This document shows, in pieces, positions 5,199 through 36,310 of a stretch of 64,000 bases of DNA. Origin of the DNA: a virus; IMG/VR virus record IMGVR_UViG_3300009514_000888, positions 1-64,000 of that record; one strand, 5' to 3'. The notes below the pieces were generated by a model that was not told where the DNA came from, ran no database searches, and saw nothing but the letters and a program-made list of their open reading frames with translations. How positions within the stretch are numbered: position 1 is the stretch's first letter; each line of letters starts with the position of its first letter. Position numbers and translations under genes: made by a program.

Positions 5199-5512
5199 TA
5201 TACTCCGAGGAACAGGCTCAAATTTGGGATGAGATCATCGATGCCGACCCCAAGATTCCCAAATTCTTCAAAAACTCAGAGCATGGCAGGGAATTGTGTC
5301 GAGCCTGGATATTTATGGGACAAAACCTTATTGAACGCGCCGGATATACTAGGGCAGAGGTCGCGGCTTTCGGTCGCCGGTTCTGCATGAAACACTTGGC
5401 CAGGCGATCCCCGATAGACGAGATATGGGATGCTGCCGAATCCCATGTTGAAGAATTGTGCCAAACGCCAGACGAAGAATCGAATATAAGGGGTCAACAT
5501 GAAATCTCGTAG
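5195..5512 (+). CDS. hypothetical protein
   Basis: ORF overlapping the upstream stop (GTGA). Confidence 0.55.
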   Translation: MIYSEEQAQIWDEIIDADPKIPKFFKNSEHGRELCRAWIFMGQNLIERAGYTRAEVAAFGRRFCMKHLARRSPIDEIWDAAESHVEELCQTPDEESNIRGQHEIS

Positions 5513-6029
5513 TTGGCATTTTGTGGACAAATCCGCTTGGGGCGATGGCCCTTGGCAGGATGAGCCTGACAAGAAACAGTGGGTAGACCAAGAGACTCAT
5601 CTGCCCTGTCTGATAGTGCGATCTAGGGTGACGGGATCGCTTTGCGGCTATGTGGGCGTTCCTGCTTCGCATCCGTGGTATGGCAAGTCTTATAATGACA
5701 TTCACCAGGAATATGAGGTAACGGTTCATGGCGGGTTGACCTTTGCGGGGACATGCGATGGCGAGCCTCGTGGTGTCTGTCATATCGTGGAAGATGGGGA
5801 AGATGACAATGTTTGGTGGGTTGGATTTGATTGCGCTCATGCCTGGGACTTAACCCCGTCGTCTGTAGCGATCATGCGAGCGATATATGACGCCAAGGGC
5901 GAGTTCTATCATCGCCGAATAGATGACATATACCGAGACGAAACATACGTAGCTGACTGTATTCGGTTATTGGCTGCGCAAGCGAAAGGCGCAGAGAAGG
6001 AAGAGGAAGATCGAAGCGCCATGTACTAG
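5499..6029 (+). CDS. phage hypothetical protein (CGYV..HP, HGGLTF, GFDCAH motifs)
   Basis: Motif pattern recurrent in uncharacterised phage proteins. Confidence 0.7.
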   Translation: MKSRSWHFVDKSAWGDGPWQDEPDKKQWVDQETHLPCLIVRSRVTGSLCGYVGVPASHPWYGKSYNDIHQEYEVTVHGGLTFAGTCDGEPRGVCHIVEDGEDDNVWWVGFDCAHAWDLTPSSVAIMRAIYDAKGEFYHRRIDDIYRDETYVADCIRLLAAQAKGAEKEEEDRSAMY

Positions 6030-6031
6030 GC

Positions 6032-6775
6032 ATGGCGTTTAAGCATCTTATCCTTGCGCTCGGACGGTCTGGCAGTACCACGTTGATGGAAGCGGTAAAC
6101 TGTCATCCGGATGCCTATCTTCTATCAGAGCCATTTAATAAACAGTGGGGCAAATTTTCGCATGTCAAATCTGTTTCAGGTATTGATGCCGCGATCCATA
6201 GTATGCAAGTATTCACTGGGTTTAAGCATACGATGGGAAATACCGCGTCATTTGATAGCGATGGCGTGATTTATCATCACATCTTGAATCATCATCCTCG
6301 CGTTATTTTACTGACGAGAGACAATATGTTGCGCCGGGCCGTATCCATGTCGATGTCTGCGCAAACTCAGGTATGGCATGTCAATCGGCAGCCCGATGCC
6401 AGAGAGAGGATATCTCAGTTTGAATTTCAACCTTTATGGGCGAATTATATCGAAAAGATTCTGCGAACGTCTGTTCTGTGGGTAGAGGCATGCGAAGCAT
6501 ATTTGAGGGAACATGGTATTATTTATCGCAAAATGACGTATGAAAATTTGATGGGCGAAGATGTTCTGGTGGGGTTGCGCATTAAGCGTTTTATGCGTGT
6601 TCTAAAGACCCTGGGATTGAGCAGGGATCATCCGAAATTCAATCCATCGAAGCTGGAAGTTATCTTGTCTCCAAAAAATAAGTTGAATTCCAGGGAAGTA
6701 TATAGGAGAGTTCCTAATATAGACGAAATAGAAGAGGTGTTTGGTAGCCCCGAAAATGGCTACTTGTTCCGATAA
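6032..6775 (+). CDS. sulfotransferase-family protein (Stf0/NodH-like)
   Basis: N-terminal PAPS-binding GRSGSTTL, LLSEPF and ILLTRDN..RAVS motifs. Confidence 0.75.
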   Translation: MAFKHLILALGRSGSTTLMEAVNCHPDAYLLSEPFNKQWGKFSHVKSVSGIDAAIHSMQVFTGFKHTMGNTASFDSDGVIYHHILNHHPRVILLTRDNMLRRAVSMSMSAQTQVWHVNRQPDARERISQFEFQPLWANYIEKILRTSVLWVEACEAYLREHGIIYRKMTYENLMGEDVLVGLRIKRFMRVLKTLGLSRDHPKFNPSKLEVILSPKNKLNSREVYRRVPNIDEIEEVFGSPENGYLFR

Positions 6776-29538: not shown

Positions 29539-30021
29539 ACACGATTGATCGTTTGCGATGTCACTGGAGTCGAAATCTCACTATTTACTCAGACATCATT
29601 GATGACTTCTGCCATGCGAGCGGTTATTCACTTTGTCAAGAAGACCTGCGTATGATTCATTCGTTACGACAGAGCCAAAGGAACCTCAGCATCTTGGCTA
29701 GAAAAGCAGAAATTCTGATGCTCGCCTGCCAAGATTCAATCGCAAGAGCGTCTACATTGACAGCATCACTTCTGGAGGCTGTTAAGGGCTATCGCGATGA
29801 TCTGATCGCGTCCGACCAGAAAGCCGCTATATTGCTGGCCCGTATGCAGAATCGCACGTGATTCTCCAGCATTAATCGCCTTCCCGCTATAATCTAGAGG
29901 GAAGGAACCCGCCTGCCAATGCTGCTAACACGCAAGCCCTTATATGTCAATAAGTTAGCAGTTATGGCGGTCTAGTATGGTTGTTTTGCGTGAATACTGC
30001 TATAATCTTTGGGAGTATCCA

Positions 30022-30777
30022 ATGAGCAGATCATTGAGCATTACGTCTACCTGGGGCTTGCAGGAATCCATCCGCCGAAGATGGGGCGAGAGAAAAGCCC
30101 CGCCTTCGCAGCCAAGGGGTGCCAAGAAAGCAACGAAACGGGTGTTGCTTGTTTTGGCCAAGGACGAAAGCCGGAGTATTCAGTCTTACCGAGTGGATAT
30201 TCAGCGTTGTATACAGGACATCATTCGGGGATGCTCGCTGGAGAAGGGGGCTGATGATTACAGGCTGATGCATATCTCTTTTGGCGACAATATACAGCAA
30301 CATCATGACTTCAAGCCGTTGAATCAGTGCCAACCAGATGATTATGTTGGACAGGAAAGAAAGTCCCGTTCGACTGCTTTGTCTGATGCGATTGTTTACG
30401 CCGTTAACTCACTGGTGGTAAAATCAGATTACATGAAAAACGATGATGTTAGCGGTATCGTGTTGGTTCTGAGCGACGGGAGATCGACCAAGTCATCGTA
30501 TAACCGGGAATACTTAAGGCGAATTATCACTAAGTCCGCCTCTAGCTCATCTCTTCGTTCCCTGAAAGTCATTTTAATCGGCGTCGGCGATGACCCGTAT
30601 GCGCAGGAGGAAATGGAAGAATTCTGTCGCGAGGCAGGGATCGCTCAATACGTATCGCTTCGTGATGTAAATCATGAGACAATTGCTATGCTGATATCCT
30701 GTGTGCACCGGAACATCATGTCGCAACGTCACGCCATGCATATCGGCAGGGAGCCCAGGAAGTTGTGCGTCGAATAG
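30022..30777 (+). CDS. vWA-like domain protein (degenerate MIDAS)
   Basis: LVLAKDESRS, STALSDA, LVLSDG and ILIGVG motifs. Confidence 0.7.
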   Translation: MSRSLSITSTWGLQESIRRRWGERKAPPSQPRGAKKATKRVLLVLAKDESRSIQSYRVDIQRCIQDIIRGCSLEKGADDYRLMHISFGDNIQQHHDFKPLNQCQPDDYVGQERKSRSTALSDAIVYAVNSLVVKSDYMKNDDVSGIVLVLSDGRSTKSSYNREYLRRIITKSASSSSLRSLKVILIGVGDDPYAQEEMEEFCREAGIAQYVSLRDVNHETIAMLISCVHRNIMSQRHAMHIGREPRKLCVE

Positions 30778-32929: not shown

Positions 32930-34531
32930 GTGAATATGACCCAGACAACCGCACTCGACCAGCCGCATGCCCTTGCGTTTTACCACGAAGGCAAGGTCCG
33001 CGTTCATCCTGACGCATCCCAGGATGTCAAGAGCGCGGTTCTTACCTTTATTGACACTGTGCTGACGGCCAGCGGACAGGCGACGTATTACAACACCAAG
33101 AAAGAGCAGTATCGCGCGCTCTACGAGGTTCATGATGCGATTTTTCGCGTCAATCGCGGACTGTATGGCGCGATGCTGTGTCTGCCTGGCATCATGGACA
33201 AGAGCCGTCAAATTGGTTTTACCAAGCTCCTGGAAGATAACAGTGAGGGCAGGGAAGCATCGTTCTTAACCCCAGAACAGGAAAATTGGGTTATTGCCTA
33301 TCTGTCCAGAAATATTAGACCCAGCGCGCTGTTCCGGCAGTTCGTGGAAATTCGCAATAAGAGGGTGAATAACAGCCGCGTGCGCAAGTTCATTTTTGGC
33401 GCGATCCTGCCGAGTAATTCGCTGCCGCTTTGGTCGGTCAAGTATCGATCCAAGGTTCGCGCTGCGCTAGAACATGCTTGGAGCCGGCAAATGGCTTCTG
33501 CGATTCGTTGTATTCTGAGCAAACCTGCCCAGTCGAGAACAGATAAGGAAAGGTCCATCCTTGATAAGAACATTGATCGCTGGGTACGGCGCGGCAATAG
33601 CGAGCTGACCCCCGACGAGGTTTATCAGTGTATTTGCTTTGTTTTGGGCGGGAAGATGGGTAGCAAGTATACCGTCAAACTGTTGATGCAGCGGCTTGAT
33701 GCCCGAGAGAGCCTGGACAAGGGCAAGGACTTACCGCCGGAAGTCCTGGAAGGCATTCGAAGTCGCTATCACAAGGATGCTGCTAAGGGCGCGGTCTTGG
33801 CGGTCACTAAGGATACGATGACCAATACCCAGAAGCGCCGCGTACAGCGCTCGGCCAAGGAAGCGAATGTTGATGTTAAAATGGACCCGCTCAAGCAGGA
33901 CATTATTCCGCTGTATGTTTACGCGCTTGAAATGGGGATGACTCGCGAAATCTTCCAGGCCCTCGACACGAAGGCTCGCAAAATCGCGCAGACAATCCCT
34001 GTTCGATATAGGCGCGTCGGCATTGTGGTGGATAACTCCGAGTCGATGTTCGGCACGGATCAGGCGAAGCGCAAGCCGTTGGCTATCGCCCTGGCTATGC
34101 GAGACATCCTTGCGGCGTCCGCGACAGAATATGCCTTCGCCATCCCATCGCAGGGACAGTTCGATGACTTCGGCATGACAACGTCGCGCGGCGACACGAG
34201 TCTTGCCGAGCCTCTGATTCGAGTAATCGAGGAAGGGGTTGATGCGGTCTACCTGATTACTGATGGATACGAGAACAGTCCGGCAGGCAGGACCGGCGAA
34301 GTTATTGAACGTTTGAGGGAAATCGGCATTGAGGTTCCTATCTTCCAGGTGTCGCCTGTTGTGTCCGTCGAGGCGGCAGGTATTCGTGCGCTTTCGGATC
34401 GTGTCGCTCCGATGCCGGTTGCGAACCCAGCAGGCATCGGCTTGTCGATGATTCGAGCAACGATTACGAGCGATGTCGAGACGGGCATCGAAGCGCTTTT
34501 GGAAACCACGCGACCGCTACTGGAGGGTTAA
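32930..34531 (+). CDS. Ro60/TROVE-like protein (helical N-terminal region plus C-terminal vWA)
   Basis: 533 aa; vWA MIDAS-like IVVDNSESM, T(S)LAEP and YLITDGYEN at Ro60-like positions; basic helical N-terminal two thirds; a Y-RNA-like array lies downstream. Confidence 0.55.
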   Translation: MNMTQTTALDQPHALAFYHEGKVRVHPDASQDVKSAVLTFIDTVLTASGQATYYNTKKEQYRALYEVHDAIFRVNRGLYGAMLCLPGIMDKSRQIGFTKLLEDNSEGREASFLTPEQENWVIAYLSRNIRPSALFRQFVEIRNKRVNNSRVRKFIFGAILPSNSLPLWSVKYRSKVRAALEHAWSRQMASAIRCILSKPAQSRTDKERSILDKNIDRWVRRGNSELTPDEVYQCICFVLGGKMGSKYTVKLLMQRLDARESLDKGKDLPPEVLEGIRSRYHKDAAKGAVLAVTKDTMTNTQKRRVQRSAKEANVDVKMDPLKQDIIPLYVYALEMGMTREIFQALDTKARKIAQTIPVRYRRVGIVVDNSESMFGTDQAKRKPLAIALAMRDILAASATEYAFAIPSQGQFDDFGMTTSRGDTSLAEPLIRVIEEGVDAVYLITDGYENSPAGRTGEVIERLREIGIEVPIFQVSPVVSVEAAGIRALSDRVAPMPVANPAGIGLSMIRATITSDVETGIEALLETTRPLLEG

Positions 34532-34535
34532 GGTT

Positions 34536-35567
34536 ATGGCTATGGCGAATATCAGCGTAGGCGAACTTTTGCACGGCTGTGTGCCTGGCCGGATTCAGTC
34601 TGTAGGCTACATGCAGGTCATCCCTCTTATCTCTGGTATTGAGGATGAGCGTTTCGTGTCTCCGAGACGGGCGAAGGTTTCGACCACGACATACGGCACA
34701 CTTGTTTTCGACAACACCGAAAACAAGGAGGTTATTGTCCCGGCTCAGGCGGCTTATATTGTTAAGCAGGCAGCGCAGGACCATGCGATGACGACGGTTG
34801 GGCTGGTTCCCAAGAAGAAGACGATATCGTTCAATACGGCAGCATGTATCCAGCAGACTCAGGGTGGAACTATTTACTCTGACGAGCATGAGATGATTAT
34901 CTTGCCGGTCGAATTGCGCAATGATGCCCACCAAGTCCGCAAGAAGCTGGGCTACGAAAAACTGTGGCCTGCCATTAACGCTATGAATGAGAGGTATGGC
35001 GTTAGCCGCGGATATGGCGCGCAGGGGCATTTGGAATACTTCATGGATGCGTTCAAGACTCAACTGGATTGCTTCGTCGCCGAGTTTGAGCCTGTTCCTA
35101 AACAGGTCGGCGCGATTGTGTTGGTTGGCGGCAGGGTCGTTGGCATTGAACGCACCCCGAACGAGGAATATTGGCGAGACATCTGGCGCACCTTGATCAG
35201 GGAGTGCTATGGGTCGCTGGCGATTCTTGAACAGCGAAAACATGCCACGAAGGCTCCTCCAGTCCCCAAGACCCGAGAGGCTTTGCCCAAGGCAACCGAT
35301 CTGTCGGACCTCAAGACGAAACTCCGGCAGACCCAGGACCGAGAGTATTCTAATGTGAAAACCATCGTGGAGAACGTTGCGGCACTGAAGCTTGATCGGT
35401 CAACGGACGCCACCAGCGGCTCGTTTGTGGTCGATGCGGTAGAGGGCGACTCTTTCGTAGGCCAGGTGGTTGTAGACGGCGAGAAGATTGTGTACGCTTC
35501 TCTCGTCGCTCGCGGATCGCAGGCCAAGAATGAGGATTGGTTCCTGGGTAAACGGTTTGCGATGTAA
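34536..35567 (+). CDS. ARPP-1/DUF6569-like protein
   Basis: MQVIPL, AQDHA and ACIQQTQGG pattern; start is ATG 34536 or the next ATG. Confidence 0.5.
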   Translation: MAMANISVGELLHGCVPGRIQSVGYMQVIPLISGIEDERFVSPRRAKVSTTTYGTLVFDNTENKEVIVPAQAAYIVKQAAQDHAMTTVGLVPKKKTISFNTAACIQQTQGGTIYSDEHEMIILPVELRNDAHQVRKKLGYEKLWPAINAMNERYGVSRGYGAQGHLEYFMDAFKTQLDCFVAEFEPVPKQVGAIVLVGGRVVGIERTPNEEYWRDIWRTLIRECYGSLAILEQRKHATKAPPVPKTREALPKATDLSDLKTKLRQTQDREYSNVKTIVENVAALKLDRSTDATSGSFVVDAVEGDSFVGQVVVDGEKIVYASLVARGSQAKNEDWFLGKRFAM

Positions 35568-35582
35568 AATTGCCCCCGGTAG

Positions 35583-35619
35583 CTCCTCCTGGCGGCTTCG
35601 GTCGCTAGGGGGAGTTTTT
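35583..35619 (+). terminator. intrinsic terminator
   Basis: CTCCTCCTGGCG-GCTTCGGT-CGCTAGGGGGAG followed by a T run. Confidence 0.75.
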
Positions 35620-35667: not shown

Positions 35668-35695
35668 TTGACATTAAAGGTTCGGACGTTACTAT
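35668..35695 (+). promoter_or_regulatory. sigma70-like promoter upstream of the ncRNA array
   Basis: TTGACA-16 nt-TACTAT, ending about 15 nt before ncRNA unit 1. Confidence 0.65.
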
Positions 35696-35709
35696 GACGA
35701 ATAAGAAAG

Positions 35710-35773
35710 CTGGGGACTTGAACGTCAATACCGCGATCTTCGGATAGTTGGCATGACCTTTAACCTACCCCAG
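35710..35773 (+). ncRNA. Y-RNA-like unit 1 (small insert)
   Basis: CTGGGG/CCCCAG terminal stem; GGACTTGAACGTCAATACCG ... TTTAACCTACC. Confidence 0.6.
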
Positions 35774-35845
35774 ATACTATTTTGTCGCAAGTGCGATGTA
35801 GATGAACGCATGACAAGTGAATAATGGTGGTTTTGGGATGCCCAA

Positions 35846-35948
35846 CTACTAACAGAGGGTGGGGTCAGGACTTTCGCGTCAATTCCGTGATTAGACAATT
35901 TCACACCCTTTGACCCGCCCCCTACCTGATCCTATCCCCTGTTAGTAG
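35846..35948 (+). ncRNA. Y-RNA-like unit 2 (hairpin insert)
   Basis: CTACTAACAG/CTGTTAGTAG stem; GGACTTTCGCGTCAATTCCG ... TTTGACCCGCCCCCTACC. Confidence 0.65.
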
Positions 35949-35953
35949 AACAT

Positions 35954-36105
35954 AAACGGGAACTCTTGCGTCAATACCGAGTAGGCATTATAAACCCCAG
36001 GATACGGGTTCGAATCCCGTTCGGCGCTTTGCGTAGTTTAGTACGCGCCGATAGCTCAATTGGCAGAGCAGGAATCTCAACGTTGACCCAAACCTTATCC
36101 CGTTT
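35954..36105 (+). ncRNA. Y-RNA-like unit 3, YrlA-like (permuted tRNA-like insert)
   Basis: AAACGGGA/TCCCGTTT stem; conserved core; order is T arm, loop-closed acceptor stem (TCGGCGC/GCGCCGA), D arm. Confidence 0.75.
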
Positions 36106-36115
36106 TTTAATACTG

Positions 36116-36268
36116 ACCGCCGGAAGCGAATAGATAGGACTCGCGCGTTAATACCGTGACATAGCTCAATGGTAGAGCAACACCCCTAAAGGTGCGATTG
36201 AAGGTTCAAACCCTTCTGTCTCAACAGAACTTAACCCGCAACCTACCTATCTATTTCCTTCCGGCGGT
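36116..36268 (+). ncRNA. Y-RNA-like unit 4 (complete tRNA-like insert, 6-nt CCUAAA loop)
   Basis: ACCGCCGGAAG/CTTCCGGCGGT and ATAGATAGG/CCTATCTAT stems; conserved core; insert has GCTC/GAGC D arm, CACC/GGTG arm and GAAGG-TTCAAAC-CCTTC T arm. Confidence 0.7.
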
Positions 36269-36310
36269 TTTTTAATGCGCAGAAAAATCTATTAATTAGT
36301 TACATAGTGT

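What the first reader, a model, noticed from the sequence alone, without database searches (positions are those of the whole stretch)
35954..36105. Unit 3: circularly permuted tRNA-like domain (T arm, closed acceptor stem, D arm)
ACGGG-TTCGAAT-CCCGT precedes TCGGCGC-(17-nt loop)-GCGCCGA-TA-GCTC-AATTGGCA-GAGC. The tRNA elbow is preserved, while the anticodon position is replaced by the conserved clamp. This is YrlA architecture and supports the Y-RNA reading. An elbow mimic without a free 3' end or anticodon is suited to binding elbow-recognising proteins.
Basis: partly seen in the sequence, partly recalled or inferred. Interest (0 to 1): 0.7.

Follow-up and report, generated by a model that had tools for sequence, protein, structure and literature searches.

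The report
Phage YrlA-type inside-out tRNA mimic
This stretch of a large phage genome encodes a small RNA that contains a tRNA "turned inside out" (ends joined, anticodon arm replaced by a docking stem), a new and diverged example of the known YrlA/Y-RNA design that sits beside a Ro60-shaped protein gene.

Summary
At 35997-36072 a T arm, a 7-bp acceptor stem closed by a 17-nt loop, U8-A9 and a D arm follow each other in that order. Every tRNA tertiary-contact position is filled. The Rfam YrlA model matches this core locally at 33.5 bits, below its gathering score of 69.

The domain is framed by an 8-bp terminal stem and a bulged "clamp" helix (GCGUCAAUACCG / GUUGACCCAA). The three neighbouring units carry the same clamp.

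The 533-aa gene 1.4 kb upstream has no Pfam TROVE hit, but its predicted structure is a full Ro60 (Z 17.5 over 412 residues). An ARPP-1 gene follows it in 79 of 81 related loci.

A covariance model of the domain finds the same permuted arrangement beside this protein family in most of 80 phage contigs, nearly always on the gene's strand. All three helices covary strongly.

I read unit 3 as a YrlA-type tRNA mimic on a Y-RNA-like chassis, belonging to a diverged Ro60 branch that Rfam and Pfam do not capture.

A 7-bp acceptor is exactly what makes M. smegmatis YrlA an RNase P substrate, and 31 of 57 relatives carry NCCA at the start of the closing loop. A free 3' end therefore cannot be excluded.

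This scan has already noted similar phage Ro60-like/tRNA-mimic pairs on other DNA.

The parts
32930..34531 (+). Ro60-fold protein gene (533 aa): N-terminal helical ring plus C-terminal vWA domain with a MIDAS motif
   Evidence: No Pfam TROVE or DUF2828 hit in it or in 39 relatives. The AlphaFold model has pLDDT 90.6. Foldseek's top hits are all Ro60, E 2.5e-7. VIA-align gives Z 17.5 over 412 residues to 2i91_B and Z 15.0 to phage phiLo Ro60. D368, S370, S372, T423 and D445 are conserved.
34473..35567 (+). ARPP-1 domain gene, coupled to the Ro60-like gene
   Evidence: Pfam PF20208, E 1.4e-28. A homologue lies directly downstream of the Ro60-like gene in 79 of 81 loci.
35581..35616 (+). Terminator-like hairpin ending the protein operon
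35668..35695 (+). Sigma-70-like promoter (TTGACA, 16 nt, TACTAT) in front of the four-unit RNA array
   Evidence: 10 of 12 matches; consensus match only
35954..35961 (+). Unit 3 terminal stem, 5' strand (AAACGGGA)
   Evidence: Pairs with 36098-36105 in both the minimum-energy and the constrained folds.
35966..35979 (+). Clamp 5' strand (UUG-C-GUCAAU) plus the conserved UACCG junction motif
   Evidence: Pairs with 36082-36091, with a C-C mismatch at 35969/36088. The same motif occurs in units 1, 2 and 4 and as GU-NNN-U-ACMG in related loci.
35980..35996 (+). 5' linker between clamp and tRNA-like core; no convincing hairpin
   Evidence: Direct reading. Only GAG (35979-81) pairs, with CUC (36076-78), in the folds.
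35997..36003 (+). Remnant of the anticodon-stem 3' strand (CC) and a 5-nt variable loop AGGAU (positions 44-48)
   Evidence: The Rfam YrlA alignment pairs CC with GG at 36071-72. G45, G46 and U48 are present.
36004..36020 (+). T arm (5 bp, loop UUCGAAU)
36021..36051 (+). 7-bp acceptor stem (36021-27 with 36045-51) closed by a 17-nt loop (36028-44); the loop has no CCA
   Evidence: Across relatives the helix covaries at all 7 pairs.
36052..36070 (+). U8-A9, D arm (4 bp, loop AAUUGGCA) and A26
36071..36081 (+). Remnant of the anticodon-stem 5' strand (GG) and the 3' linker
36082..36091 (+). Clamp 3' strand (GUUGAC-C-CAA)
36098..36108 (+). Terminal stem 3' strand (UCCCGUUU) running into a U6 tract

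Best explanation
Unit 3 is one of four tandem Y-RNA-like modules transcribed from their own promoter, just downstream of a phage operon that encodes a Ro60-fold ring protein and an ARPP-1 protein.

Each module has a terminal stem and a conserved bulged clamp helix with a UACCG junction. I infer that the clamp is the docking site of the Ro60-like protein.

In unit 3 the part held by the clamp is a class-I tRNA body with permuted chain order: variable loop, T arm, 7-bp acceptor stem closed by a loop, then D arm. It has no anticodon arm. It should fold into the tRNA L-shape with an intact D/T elbow, as shown by crystallography for Salmonella YrlA.

By analogy with YrlA, I infer that it presents a tRNA-shaped surface to a tRNA-recognising partner while tethered to the Ro60-like ring. 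This happens in a phage genome region rich in tRNA-related genes.

Shown here: the sequence anatomy, family-wide conservation and covariation of the permuted core, linkage and strand agreement with the Ro60-fold gene, and the Ro60 fold of that protein's predicted structure.

Inferred: transcription, binding to the protein, the L-shaped fold, and the identity of any partner.
For: - Anatomy and tertiary positions.
- Rfam YrlA local match to T arm, acceptor and D arm.
- The YrlA-type fold is within 0.4 kcal/mol of the minimum-energy fold.
- Ro60 fold of the upstream protein.
- The permuted core recurs beside this protein family in most of 80 phage loci. Of 297 hits only one is on the opposite strand, though that count includes ordinary tandem tRNAs.
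- After filtering there are 57 non-redundant closed-acceptor domains.
- Covariation in all 16 pairs.
- An independent RNAalifold consensus on 21 relatives recovers the terminal stem, clamp, T, acceptor, D and anticodon helices. 22 of 35 pairs show compensatory changes.
- Published precedent: YrlA lies within 4 kb of Ro60 on the same strand, binds Rsr and carries tRNA modifications (PMC4201824). Its crystal structure is a tRNA-like L (10.1101/312249).
- A different phage Ro60-fold protein, Bas63 gp130, sits upstream of tRNA genes and counters the ppl defence system (10.1101/2024.10.10.617714).
Against: - There is no expression, binding or structure-probing evidence. No sequencing run was listed.
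- The Rfam YrlA score is half the gathering score, and the outer third of that model does not match.
- The YrlA motif GNCGAAN0-1G is absent, so the protein contact must differ from that of Rsr-YrlA.
- The protein is only a structural relative of Ro60 (12-14% identity), so RNA binding is not guaranteed.
- The region between clamp and core has no supported structure, and no close orthologue of unit 3 was available to test it. The nearest, L001, has a Ro60-like protein only 44% identical.
- The single-sequence minimum-energy fold does not contain the T stem.
Confidence: 0.68

Rival explanations
1. The particle is the same, but the acceptor loop does not stay closed. RNase P cuts between C36044 and G36045, the 17-nt trailer is trimmed, and CCA may be added. 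The result is a two-piece tRNA body with a free acceptor end, held together by the acceptor stem, the clamp and the terminal stem.
For: - Unit 3 has a 7-bp acceptor stacked on a 5-bp T stem, a G+1:C72 pair and an intact elbow.
- M. smegmatis YrlA, the YrlA with a 7-bp acceptor, is cut by RNase P in vitro and in vivo and gains CCA. Both halves remain bound to Rsr (PMC4201824; 10.1101/312249).
- Among relatives the 7-bp acceptor is the rule. 31 of 57 closing loops begin with NCCA directly after the 3' strand, where about 1 in 64 is expected by chance.
Against: - Unit 3's own loop starts UUUG and has no CCA.
- No CCA-adding enzyme gene was found in the held 186 kb, though the record is only about 39% complete and the host enzyme could serve.
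- No RNA-end data exist.
Confidence: 0.35
2. It is a permuted tRNA gene, as in the red alga Cyanidioschyzon. The clamp and terminal stem would be excised, the ends ligated into a circle, and the acceptor opened to give an ordinary decoding tRNA.
For: - The topology matches: the 3' half lies before the 5' half, and the acceptor is joined by an intervening loop. Wang et al. raise this possibility for YrlA.
- Many relatives do carry a 5-bp/7-nt anticodon arm and an encoded NCCA.
Against: - Unit 3 has no anticodon loop and at most a 2-bp remnant of the anticodon stem.
- No RtcB or RNA ligase was found in the held contig.
- No bacterial splicing endonuclease is known.
- In relatives, U33 is present in only about half of the anticodon-like loops.
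Confidence: 0.03
3. It is a free-standing tRNA decoy or processing element that works without the Ro60-like protein. For example, it could be a sponge for a host nuclease or modification enzyme that recognises the acceptor or elbow. Or it could be an RNase P entry site that controls the stability of the RNA array.
For: - The tRNA body is complete where enzymes read the elbow and acceptor.
- It lies in a tRNA-related island with a suppressor tRNA and an HD-domain gene.
- tRNA-like RNase P sites in lncRNAs are a known processing device.
Against: - The clamp and terminal stem are conserved across units with quite different inserts and across loci.
- The RNAs track the Ro60-fold gene on the same strand in most loci. 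This is hard to explain if the protein is irrelevant.
Confidence: 0.1
4. It is a chance arrangement or a decayed remnant of two adjacent tRNA genes: the T arm of one and the D arm of the next.
For: - Tandem tRNAs do give false YrlA-like hits. Chen et al. say so, and I saw this in L004 and L006.
Against: - The two acceptor strands are mutually complementary at 7 of 7 positions.
- ARAGORN and Rfam find no tRNA overlapping the domain at threshold.
- The same closed arrangement recurs with covarying acceptor sequences in dozens of loci.
Confidence: 0.02

Closest known systems
YrlA (Y RNA-like A; Rfam RF02553), the Rsr/Ro60-bound tRNA mimic of bacteria and mycobacteriophages (Chen et al. 2014, PMC4201824; Wang et al. 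2018, 10.1101/312249)
   Same: - The order is T arm, closed acceptor stem, D arm.
- All tRNA tertiary-contact nucleotides are present, including an A15:U48 Levitt pair.
- The 5' and 3' flanks come together in a long stem.
- It lies on the same strand within 4 kb of a Ro60-fold gene, as one of several Y-like RNAs in a row next to tRNA genes.
   Different: - The Rfam score is 33.5 bits against a gathering score of 69. Relatives score 29-37 bits.
- There is no GNCGAAN0-1G motif. Instead there is a GCGUCAAUACCG / GUUGACCCAA clamp with a C-C mismatch.
- No clear V hairpin is present.
- The partner protein has no TROVE match by sequence and is always coupled to an ARPP-1 gene.
M. smegmatis YrlA specifically
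   Same: It has a 7-bp acceptor stem, the feature that makes it an RNase P substrate. It is followed by trimming and CCA addition, and both halves stay on Rsr.
   Different: Processing of unit 3 is untested. Its loop is 17 nt and encodes no C of the CCA.
Circularly permuted tRNA genes of Cyanidioschyzon merolae (Soma et al. 2007, as cited)
   Same: The 3' half precedes the 5' half. [quoted passage not shown]
   Different: Those genes mature into decoding tRNAs through a splicing endonuclease and a ligase. Unit 3 has no anticodon loop, and no such enzymes are known in bacteria or seen in this contig.
Two-piece (permuted) tmRNA of alpha-proteobacteria and cyanobacteria (from my own knowledge: Keiler, Shapiro and Williams 2000)
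   Same: It is a bacterial tRNA-like domain encoded in permuted order. The segment between the acceptor 3' strand (with CCA) and the 5' strand is removed to give two base-paired pieces.
   Different: tmRNA carries an mRNA-like reading frame and works with SmpB on the ribosome. ARAGORN calls no tmRNA here.
Phage Ro60-fold proteins next to tRNA clusters (Bas63 gp130, counter of the ppl defence, 10.1101/2024.10.10.617714; Thermus phage phiLo Ro60, PDB 9l5y)
   Same: A phage-encoded Ro60-fold protein lies beside tRNA-like genes. An anti-defence role has been shown for gp130.
   Different: There is no detectable sequence similarity to the protein here. Only one unannotated uncultured phage record matches by tblastn. 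The RNA partners of gp130 have not been characterised.

Membership tests
YrlA (Rfam RF02553 / Chen et al. 2014) | tRNA-like core in the order T arm, acceptor-like stem-loop, D arm, with conserved tRNA tertiary nucleotides | tested here: met
   family-wide covariation
YrlA (Rfam RF02553 / Chen et al. 2014) | Score at or above the Rfam gathering threshold (69 bits) over the full model | tested here: not met
   33.5 bits, covering only model positions 24-84 of 114. There was no YrlA hit at gathering threshold in the window or in 15 related loci. Relatives score 29-37 bits.
YrlA (Rfam RF02553 / Chen et al. 2014) | GNCGAAN0-1G motif near the 5' end (proposed Rsr contact) | tested here: not met
   A regular-expression search over 35696-36290 finds none. 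The conserved 5' motif is GCGUCAAUACCG.
YrlA (Rfam RF02553 / Chen et al. 2014) | Encoded within 4 kb of, and on the same strand as, a Ro60 orthologue | tested here: met
   Unit 3 starts 1.4 kb downstream of the end of the 533-aa gene, on the same strand. The protein is Ro60 by predicted fold only; it has no TROVE hit by sequence.
YrlA (Rfam RF02553 / Chen et al. 2014) | Physical association with Ro60/Rsr; pseudouridine-55 and dihydrouridine made by TruB and DusA | not testable with these tools
   Needs co-immunoprecipitation and modification mapping.
Ro60 / TROVE protein family (for the partner gene) | Helical HEAT-like ring plus a C-terminal vWA domain with MIDAS | tested here: met
   Model pLDDT 90.6. 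Z 17.5, 412 residues aligned and rmsd 4.6 to Xenopus Ro60; all top Foldseek hits are Ro60. DxSxS..T..D is conserved.
Ro60 / TROVE protein family (for the partner gene) | Match to Pfam TROVE (PF05731) by sequence | tested here: not met
   The profile search against PDB sequences also found nothing.
Canonical tRNA (RF00005) | Cloverleaf in native order, with an anticodon arm, above 29 bits | tested here: not met
   Only a 23.5-bit partial alignment with the D and anticodon arms deleted. ARAGORN calls no tRNA at 35954-36105.
Permuted tRNA gene (Cyanidioschyzon type) | Complete anticodon arm, so that processing yields a decoding tRNA | tested here: not met
   No 5-bp/7-nt hairpin lies on either side of the core in unit 3 (direct reading).

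The most novel reading that the evidence does not exclude
Unit 3 and its many relatives are not closed mimics. RNase P and 3' trimming open them into two-piece tRNA bodies tethered to Ro60, with a genuine NCCA acceptor end. In most relatives these are full class-II-like tRNAs in which the long variable arm has become the Ro60 docking stem. Such particles could be aminoacylated. Or they could serve as bait for host enzymes or defence nucleases that act on tRNA acceptor ends, giving huge phages a Ro60-based system to protect or counterfeit tRNA.
Probability: 0.15. Interest if true: 0.8.

Novelty: new variant of a known kind. Interest (0 to 1): 0.5.

Why it matters
Y RNAs with a tRNA-like module have been known since 2014, but their effector is still unidentified. 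They have been catalogued only next to proteins recognisable as TROVE by sequence.

This locus belongs to a large metagenomic branch, mostly of huge phages. In that branch the Ro60 fold is invisible to Pfam, the docking helix is different, the protein is always coupled to an ARPP-1 enzyme-like gene, and the RNAs come in arrays.

The branch offers many natural variants of one design: a 7-bp acceptor, frequent encoded NCCA, and the clamp attached at different places on the tRNA body. These variants could be used to test what the tRNA-like part is for, and whether opening by RNase P is the rule and not an oddity of M. smegmatis.

Unit 3 on its own is an ordinary representative of the YrlA idea, not a new principle.

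Tried and rejected
- I could not fetch the contigs of the two closest protein relatives (58% and 54% identity), so I have no true orthologues of unit 3.
- **Single-protein locus scans.** They found nothing in viral contigs and one 45%-identity locus without the RNA in metagenomes.
- **blastn of the RNA region against GenBank phages.** No match.
- **Pattern scan for clamp plus T loop in viral contigs.** It returned only L001's contig and unrelated sequences.
- **My test for a 6-nt complement of the clamp 5' strand downstream.** It was uninformative, because 71% of shuffled flanks also gave 6 of 6 pairs with G-U allowed. I do not use it.
- **Folding the flanks with the core replaced by GAAA.** This shows the terminal stem and clamp qualitatively, but the z-scores are modest because extra flank was included.
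- **Sequence searches of the protein.** Searches against PDB sequences, as a single sequence and as a profile, gave nothing. Only the fold comparison identified Ro60.
- **Sequencing runs.** None was listed.
- **Other enzymes in the phage record.** CCA-adding enzyme, RtcB and RNA ligase families were not found in the held 186-kb fragment. The record is about 39% complete, so this is not evidence of absence.
- **Rejected readings.** I rejected tandem-tRNA artefact, decoding tRNA and permuted tmRNA.

Full report
**Where it lies**

The window is the first 64 kb of a 186-kb IMG/VR phage record that is judged about 39% complete. Downstream of two co-oriented genes lie a terminator-like hairpin (35581-35616) and a sigma-70-like promoter (TTGACA, 16 nt, TACTAT; 35668-35695). 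Four structured units follow, and then an amber-suppressor tRNA.

The finding concerns the third unit, 35954-36105.

**The observation**

The sequence is exactly as described.

| Element | Coordinates | Sequence |
|---|---|---|
| T arm | 36004-36020 | ACGGG-UUCGAAU-CCCGU |
| Acceptor 3' strand | 36021-36027 | UCGGCGC |
| Closing loop | 36028-36044 | 17 nt |
| Acceptor 5' strand | 36045-36051 | GCGCCGA |
| U8, A9 | 36052-36053 | UA |
| D arm | 36054-36069 | GCUC-AAUUGGCA-GAGC |

With tRNA numbering, every position used for the tRNA tertiary fold is filled:
- U8 and A14
- the A15:U48 Levitt pair
- G18 and G19 facing U55 and C56 of the T loop
- U54 and A58
- A21 and A9
- G45 and G46
- A26 opposite A44
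- G53-C61

The Rfam YrlA model aligns to 35997-36072 at 33.5 bits (E 3.1e-5 in the 1.1-kb search). It covers model positions 24-84 of 114, which is precisely the T, acceptor and D part.

The outer frame consists of three elements:
- an 8-bp terminal stem, 35954-61 with 36098-105, running into a U6 tract
- a clamp helix, 35966-75 with 36082-91, containing a C-C mismatch
- a UACCG junction

ViennaRNA's minimum-energy fold keeps the terminal stem, clamp, acceptor and D arm but replaces the T stem by an alternative pairing. Forcing the tRNA-like helices costs only 0.4 kcal/mol. Thermodynamics therefore neither favours nor opposes the tRNA-like fold.

**The neighbouring proteins**

The 533-aa protein (32930-34531) has no Pfam hit, and none of its 39 sampled relatives hits TROVE or DUF2828. 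The family is large (128 proteins at E <= 0.001) and almost all members are unnamed. Its alignment shows a conserved MIDAS motif in the C-terminal third.

An AlphaFold model built on that alignment is confident (pLDDT 90.6, pTM 0.86). Its best structural matches are all Ro60, aligned over the full length:
- Foldseek E 2.5e-7
- VIA-align Z 17.5, with 412 aligned residues, to Xenopus Ro60
- VIA-align Z 15.0 to the Ro60 of Thermus phage phiLo
- VIA-align Z 11.8 to Deinococcus Rsr

The next gene is an ARPP-1 domain protein. A homologue follows the Ro60-like gene directly in 79 of 81 related loci. Iyer et al. 2022 list other gene neighbourhoods for ARPP and propose that it acts on ribose moieties. 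Ro60 and TROVE do not occur anywhere in that paper's text (PMC9503650).

**Relatives of the RNA**

I fetched 80 phage loci with the protein alignment and built a covariance model of the T, acceptor and D core from six examples. The model finds the same permuted core in most loci. It lies almost always on the strand of the Ro60-like gene and within a few kilobases of it.

Tandem tRNA genes give false hits, as Chen et al. warned. I therefore kept only hits whose two acceptor strands pair with each other and whose closing loop is short. This left 57 non-redundant domains.

On the unfiltered 150-hit alignment, 90.8% of cells are paired. The figure is 62.4% in shuffles and 40-53% with slid partners. 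All 16 pairs show changes on both sides. Acceptor sequences range from ACCCCCG/CGGGGGU to AUUAUCC/GGAUAAU and UAACUGA/UCAGUUG.

In the phage's own 186 kb, unit 3 is the only match at E <= 0.001.

**Family features that bear on the interpretation**

1. The 7-bp acceptor is the rule.
2. 31 of 57 closing loops start with NCCA immediately after the acceptor 3' strand. Unit 3 is an exception; its loop starts UUUG.
3. 44 of 57 domains are followed directly by a 5-bp stem with a 7-nt loop at the place of the anticodon arm. They are therefore complete permuted tRNAs, and in them the clamp emerges at the variable-arm position.

In a group of 21 such units, RNAalifold was given no structure. It still recovered the terminal stem, a 10-bp clamp, the T arm, the acceptor stem, a 3-bp D stem and the anticodon arm, with compensatory changes in 22 of 35 pairs.

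Unit 3 and the third unit of L001 (the locus whose protein is 44% identical) lack that hairpin. Their flanks run to the clamp after a short remnant of the anticodon stem, which is the classical YrlA layout. A second L001 unit has the anticodon-like hairpin upstream of the T arm. The clamp is thus joined to the tRNA body at different points in different units. The 5' clamp motif is recognisably conserved as GU-NNN-U-ACMG.

**Comparison with what is known**

- Chen et al. 2014 defined YrlA by the T, AS and D stem-loops, the tRNA-like tertiary nucleotides, a 5' GNCGAAN0-1G motif and a position within 4 kb of Ro60 on the same strand.
- Wang et al. 2018 solved the domain and call most YrlAs circularly permuted tRNAs with closed acceptor stems.
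- Unit 3 meets the architectural and positional criteria. It fails the Rfam threshold, as do all relatives tested at 29-37 bits. It also lacks the 5' motif.
- I therefore file it as a YrlA-like variant attached to a different docking helix and a diverged Ro60, not as a member of RF02553.

**How it most likely works**

- Shown: a conserved permuted tRNA body framed by a conserved clamp, genetically linked to a Ro60-fold protein.
- Inferred from the Ro60/Y-RNA literature: the clamp docks on the ring, and the tRNA-shaped part recruits or occupies a factor that recognises tRNA.
The only YrlA with a 7-bp acceptor stem, that of M. smegmatis, is cut by RNase P and receives CCA, and both halves stay on Rsr. 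With 7 bp here and NCCA loops in over half of the relatives, I give RNase P opening about one chance in three for unit 3. I rate it higher for the NCCA-bearing relatives.
- A decoding role is excluded for unit 3, because it has no anticodon loop.
- A phage Ro60-fold protein of another family, Bas63 gp130, counters the ppl defence system. An anti-defence role is a reasonable but untested direction here.

**Earlier findings of this scan**

Notes from this scan describe similar phage Ro60-like proteins with tRNA-mimic RNAs on other genomes, and the sister units in this window. I tested the Ro60 fold, the family spread and the Pfam status myself.

**Limits**

- There are no expression or end-mapping data.
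- The structure of the linkers between clamp and core is unsupported.

Noticed in passing
L030-L080 group, e.g. L074:3351-3507: Most relatives are complete permuted tRNAs: T arm, closed acceptor, a 3-bp D stem with a long D loop (which looks class-II-like to me), and a 5-bp/7-nt anticodon arm. The clamp and terminal stem emerge where a long variable arm would be. RNAalifold recovers all six helices, with compensatory changes in 22 of 35 pairs.
   Followed up: partly
57 non-redundant domains in L001-L080: 31 of 57 acceptor-closing loops begin with NCCA (ACCA or GCCA) right after the 3' strand, as if an encoded tRNA 3' end had been retained. Window unit 3 lacks it.
   Followed up: partly
window 34473-35567 and L001-L081 at about 5500-6600: An ARPP-1 domain gene directly follows the Ro60-fold gene in 79 of 81 loci. 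The 2022 paper that defined ARPP lists other gene neighbourhoods and does not mention Ro60 or TROVE.
   Followed up: partly
L001:8798-8946: A sister unit has an anticodon-arm-like hairpin (loop CUUUAAU) upstream of the T arm, an ACCA-containing closing loop and a miniature D hairpin. Here the clamp joins the tRNA body at yet another position.
   Followed up: no
L012:323-681 and L017:420-797: Phage tmRNA genes (106 and 96 bits) lie immediately downstream of a permuted tRNA-like domain (L012:215-280, L017:309-373) and upstream of the Ro60-like gene.
   Followed up: no
window 36117-36283 and L001:8644-8766: Other units in the same arrays mount a native-order tRNA-like cloverleaf on the clamp by its acceptor end. 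The window's unit 4 scores 46.5 bits with Rfam tRNA and has a 6-nt anticodon loop. The L001 unit is called tRNA-Cys by ARAGORN.
   Followed up: no
window 29977-30777: A separate 266-aa vWA-domain protein gene lies about 2 kb upstream of the Ro60-like gene.
   Followed up: no
LR756500.1:103898-105355 (GenBank uncultured phage, 462 kb): This is the only GenBank phage record with a homologue of the Ro60-fold protein (40% identity), and it is unannotated. The family seems confined to metagenomic large phages and a few bacterial assemblies.
   Followed up: no
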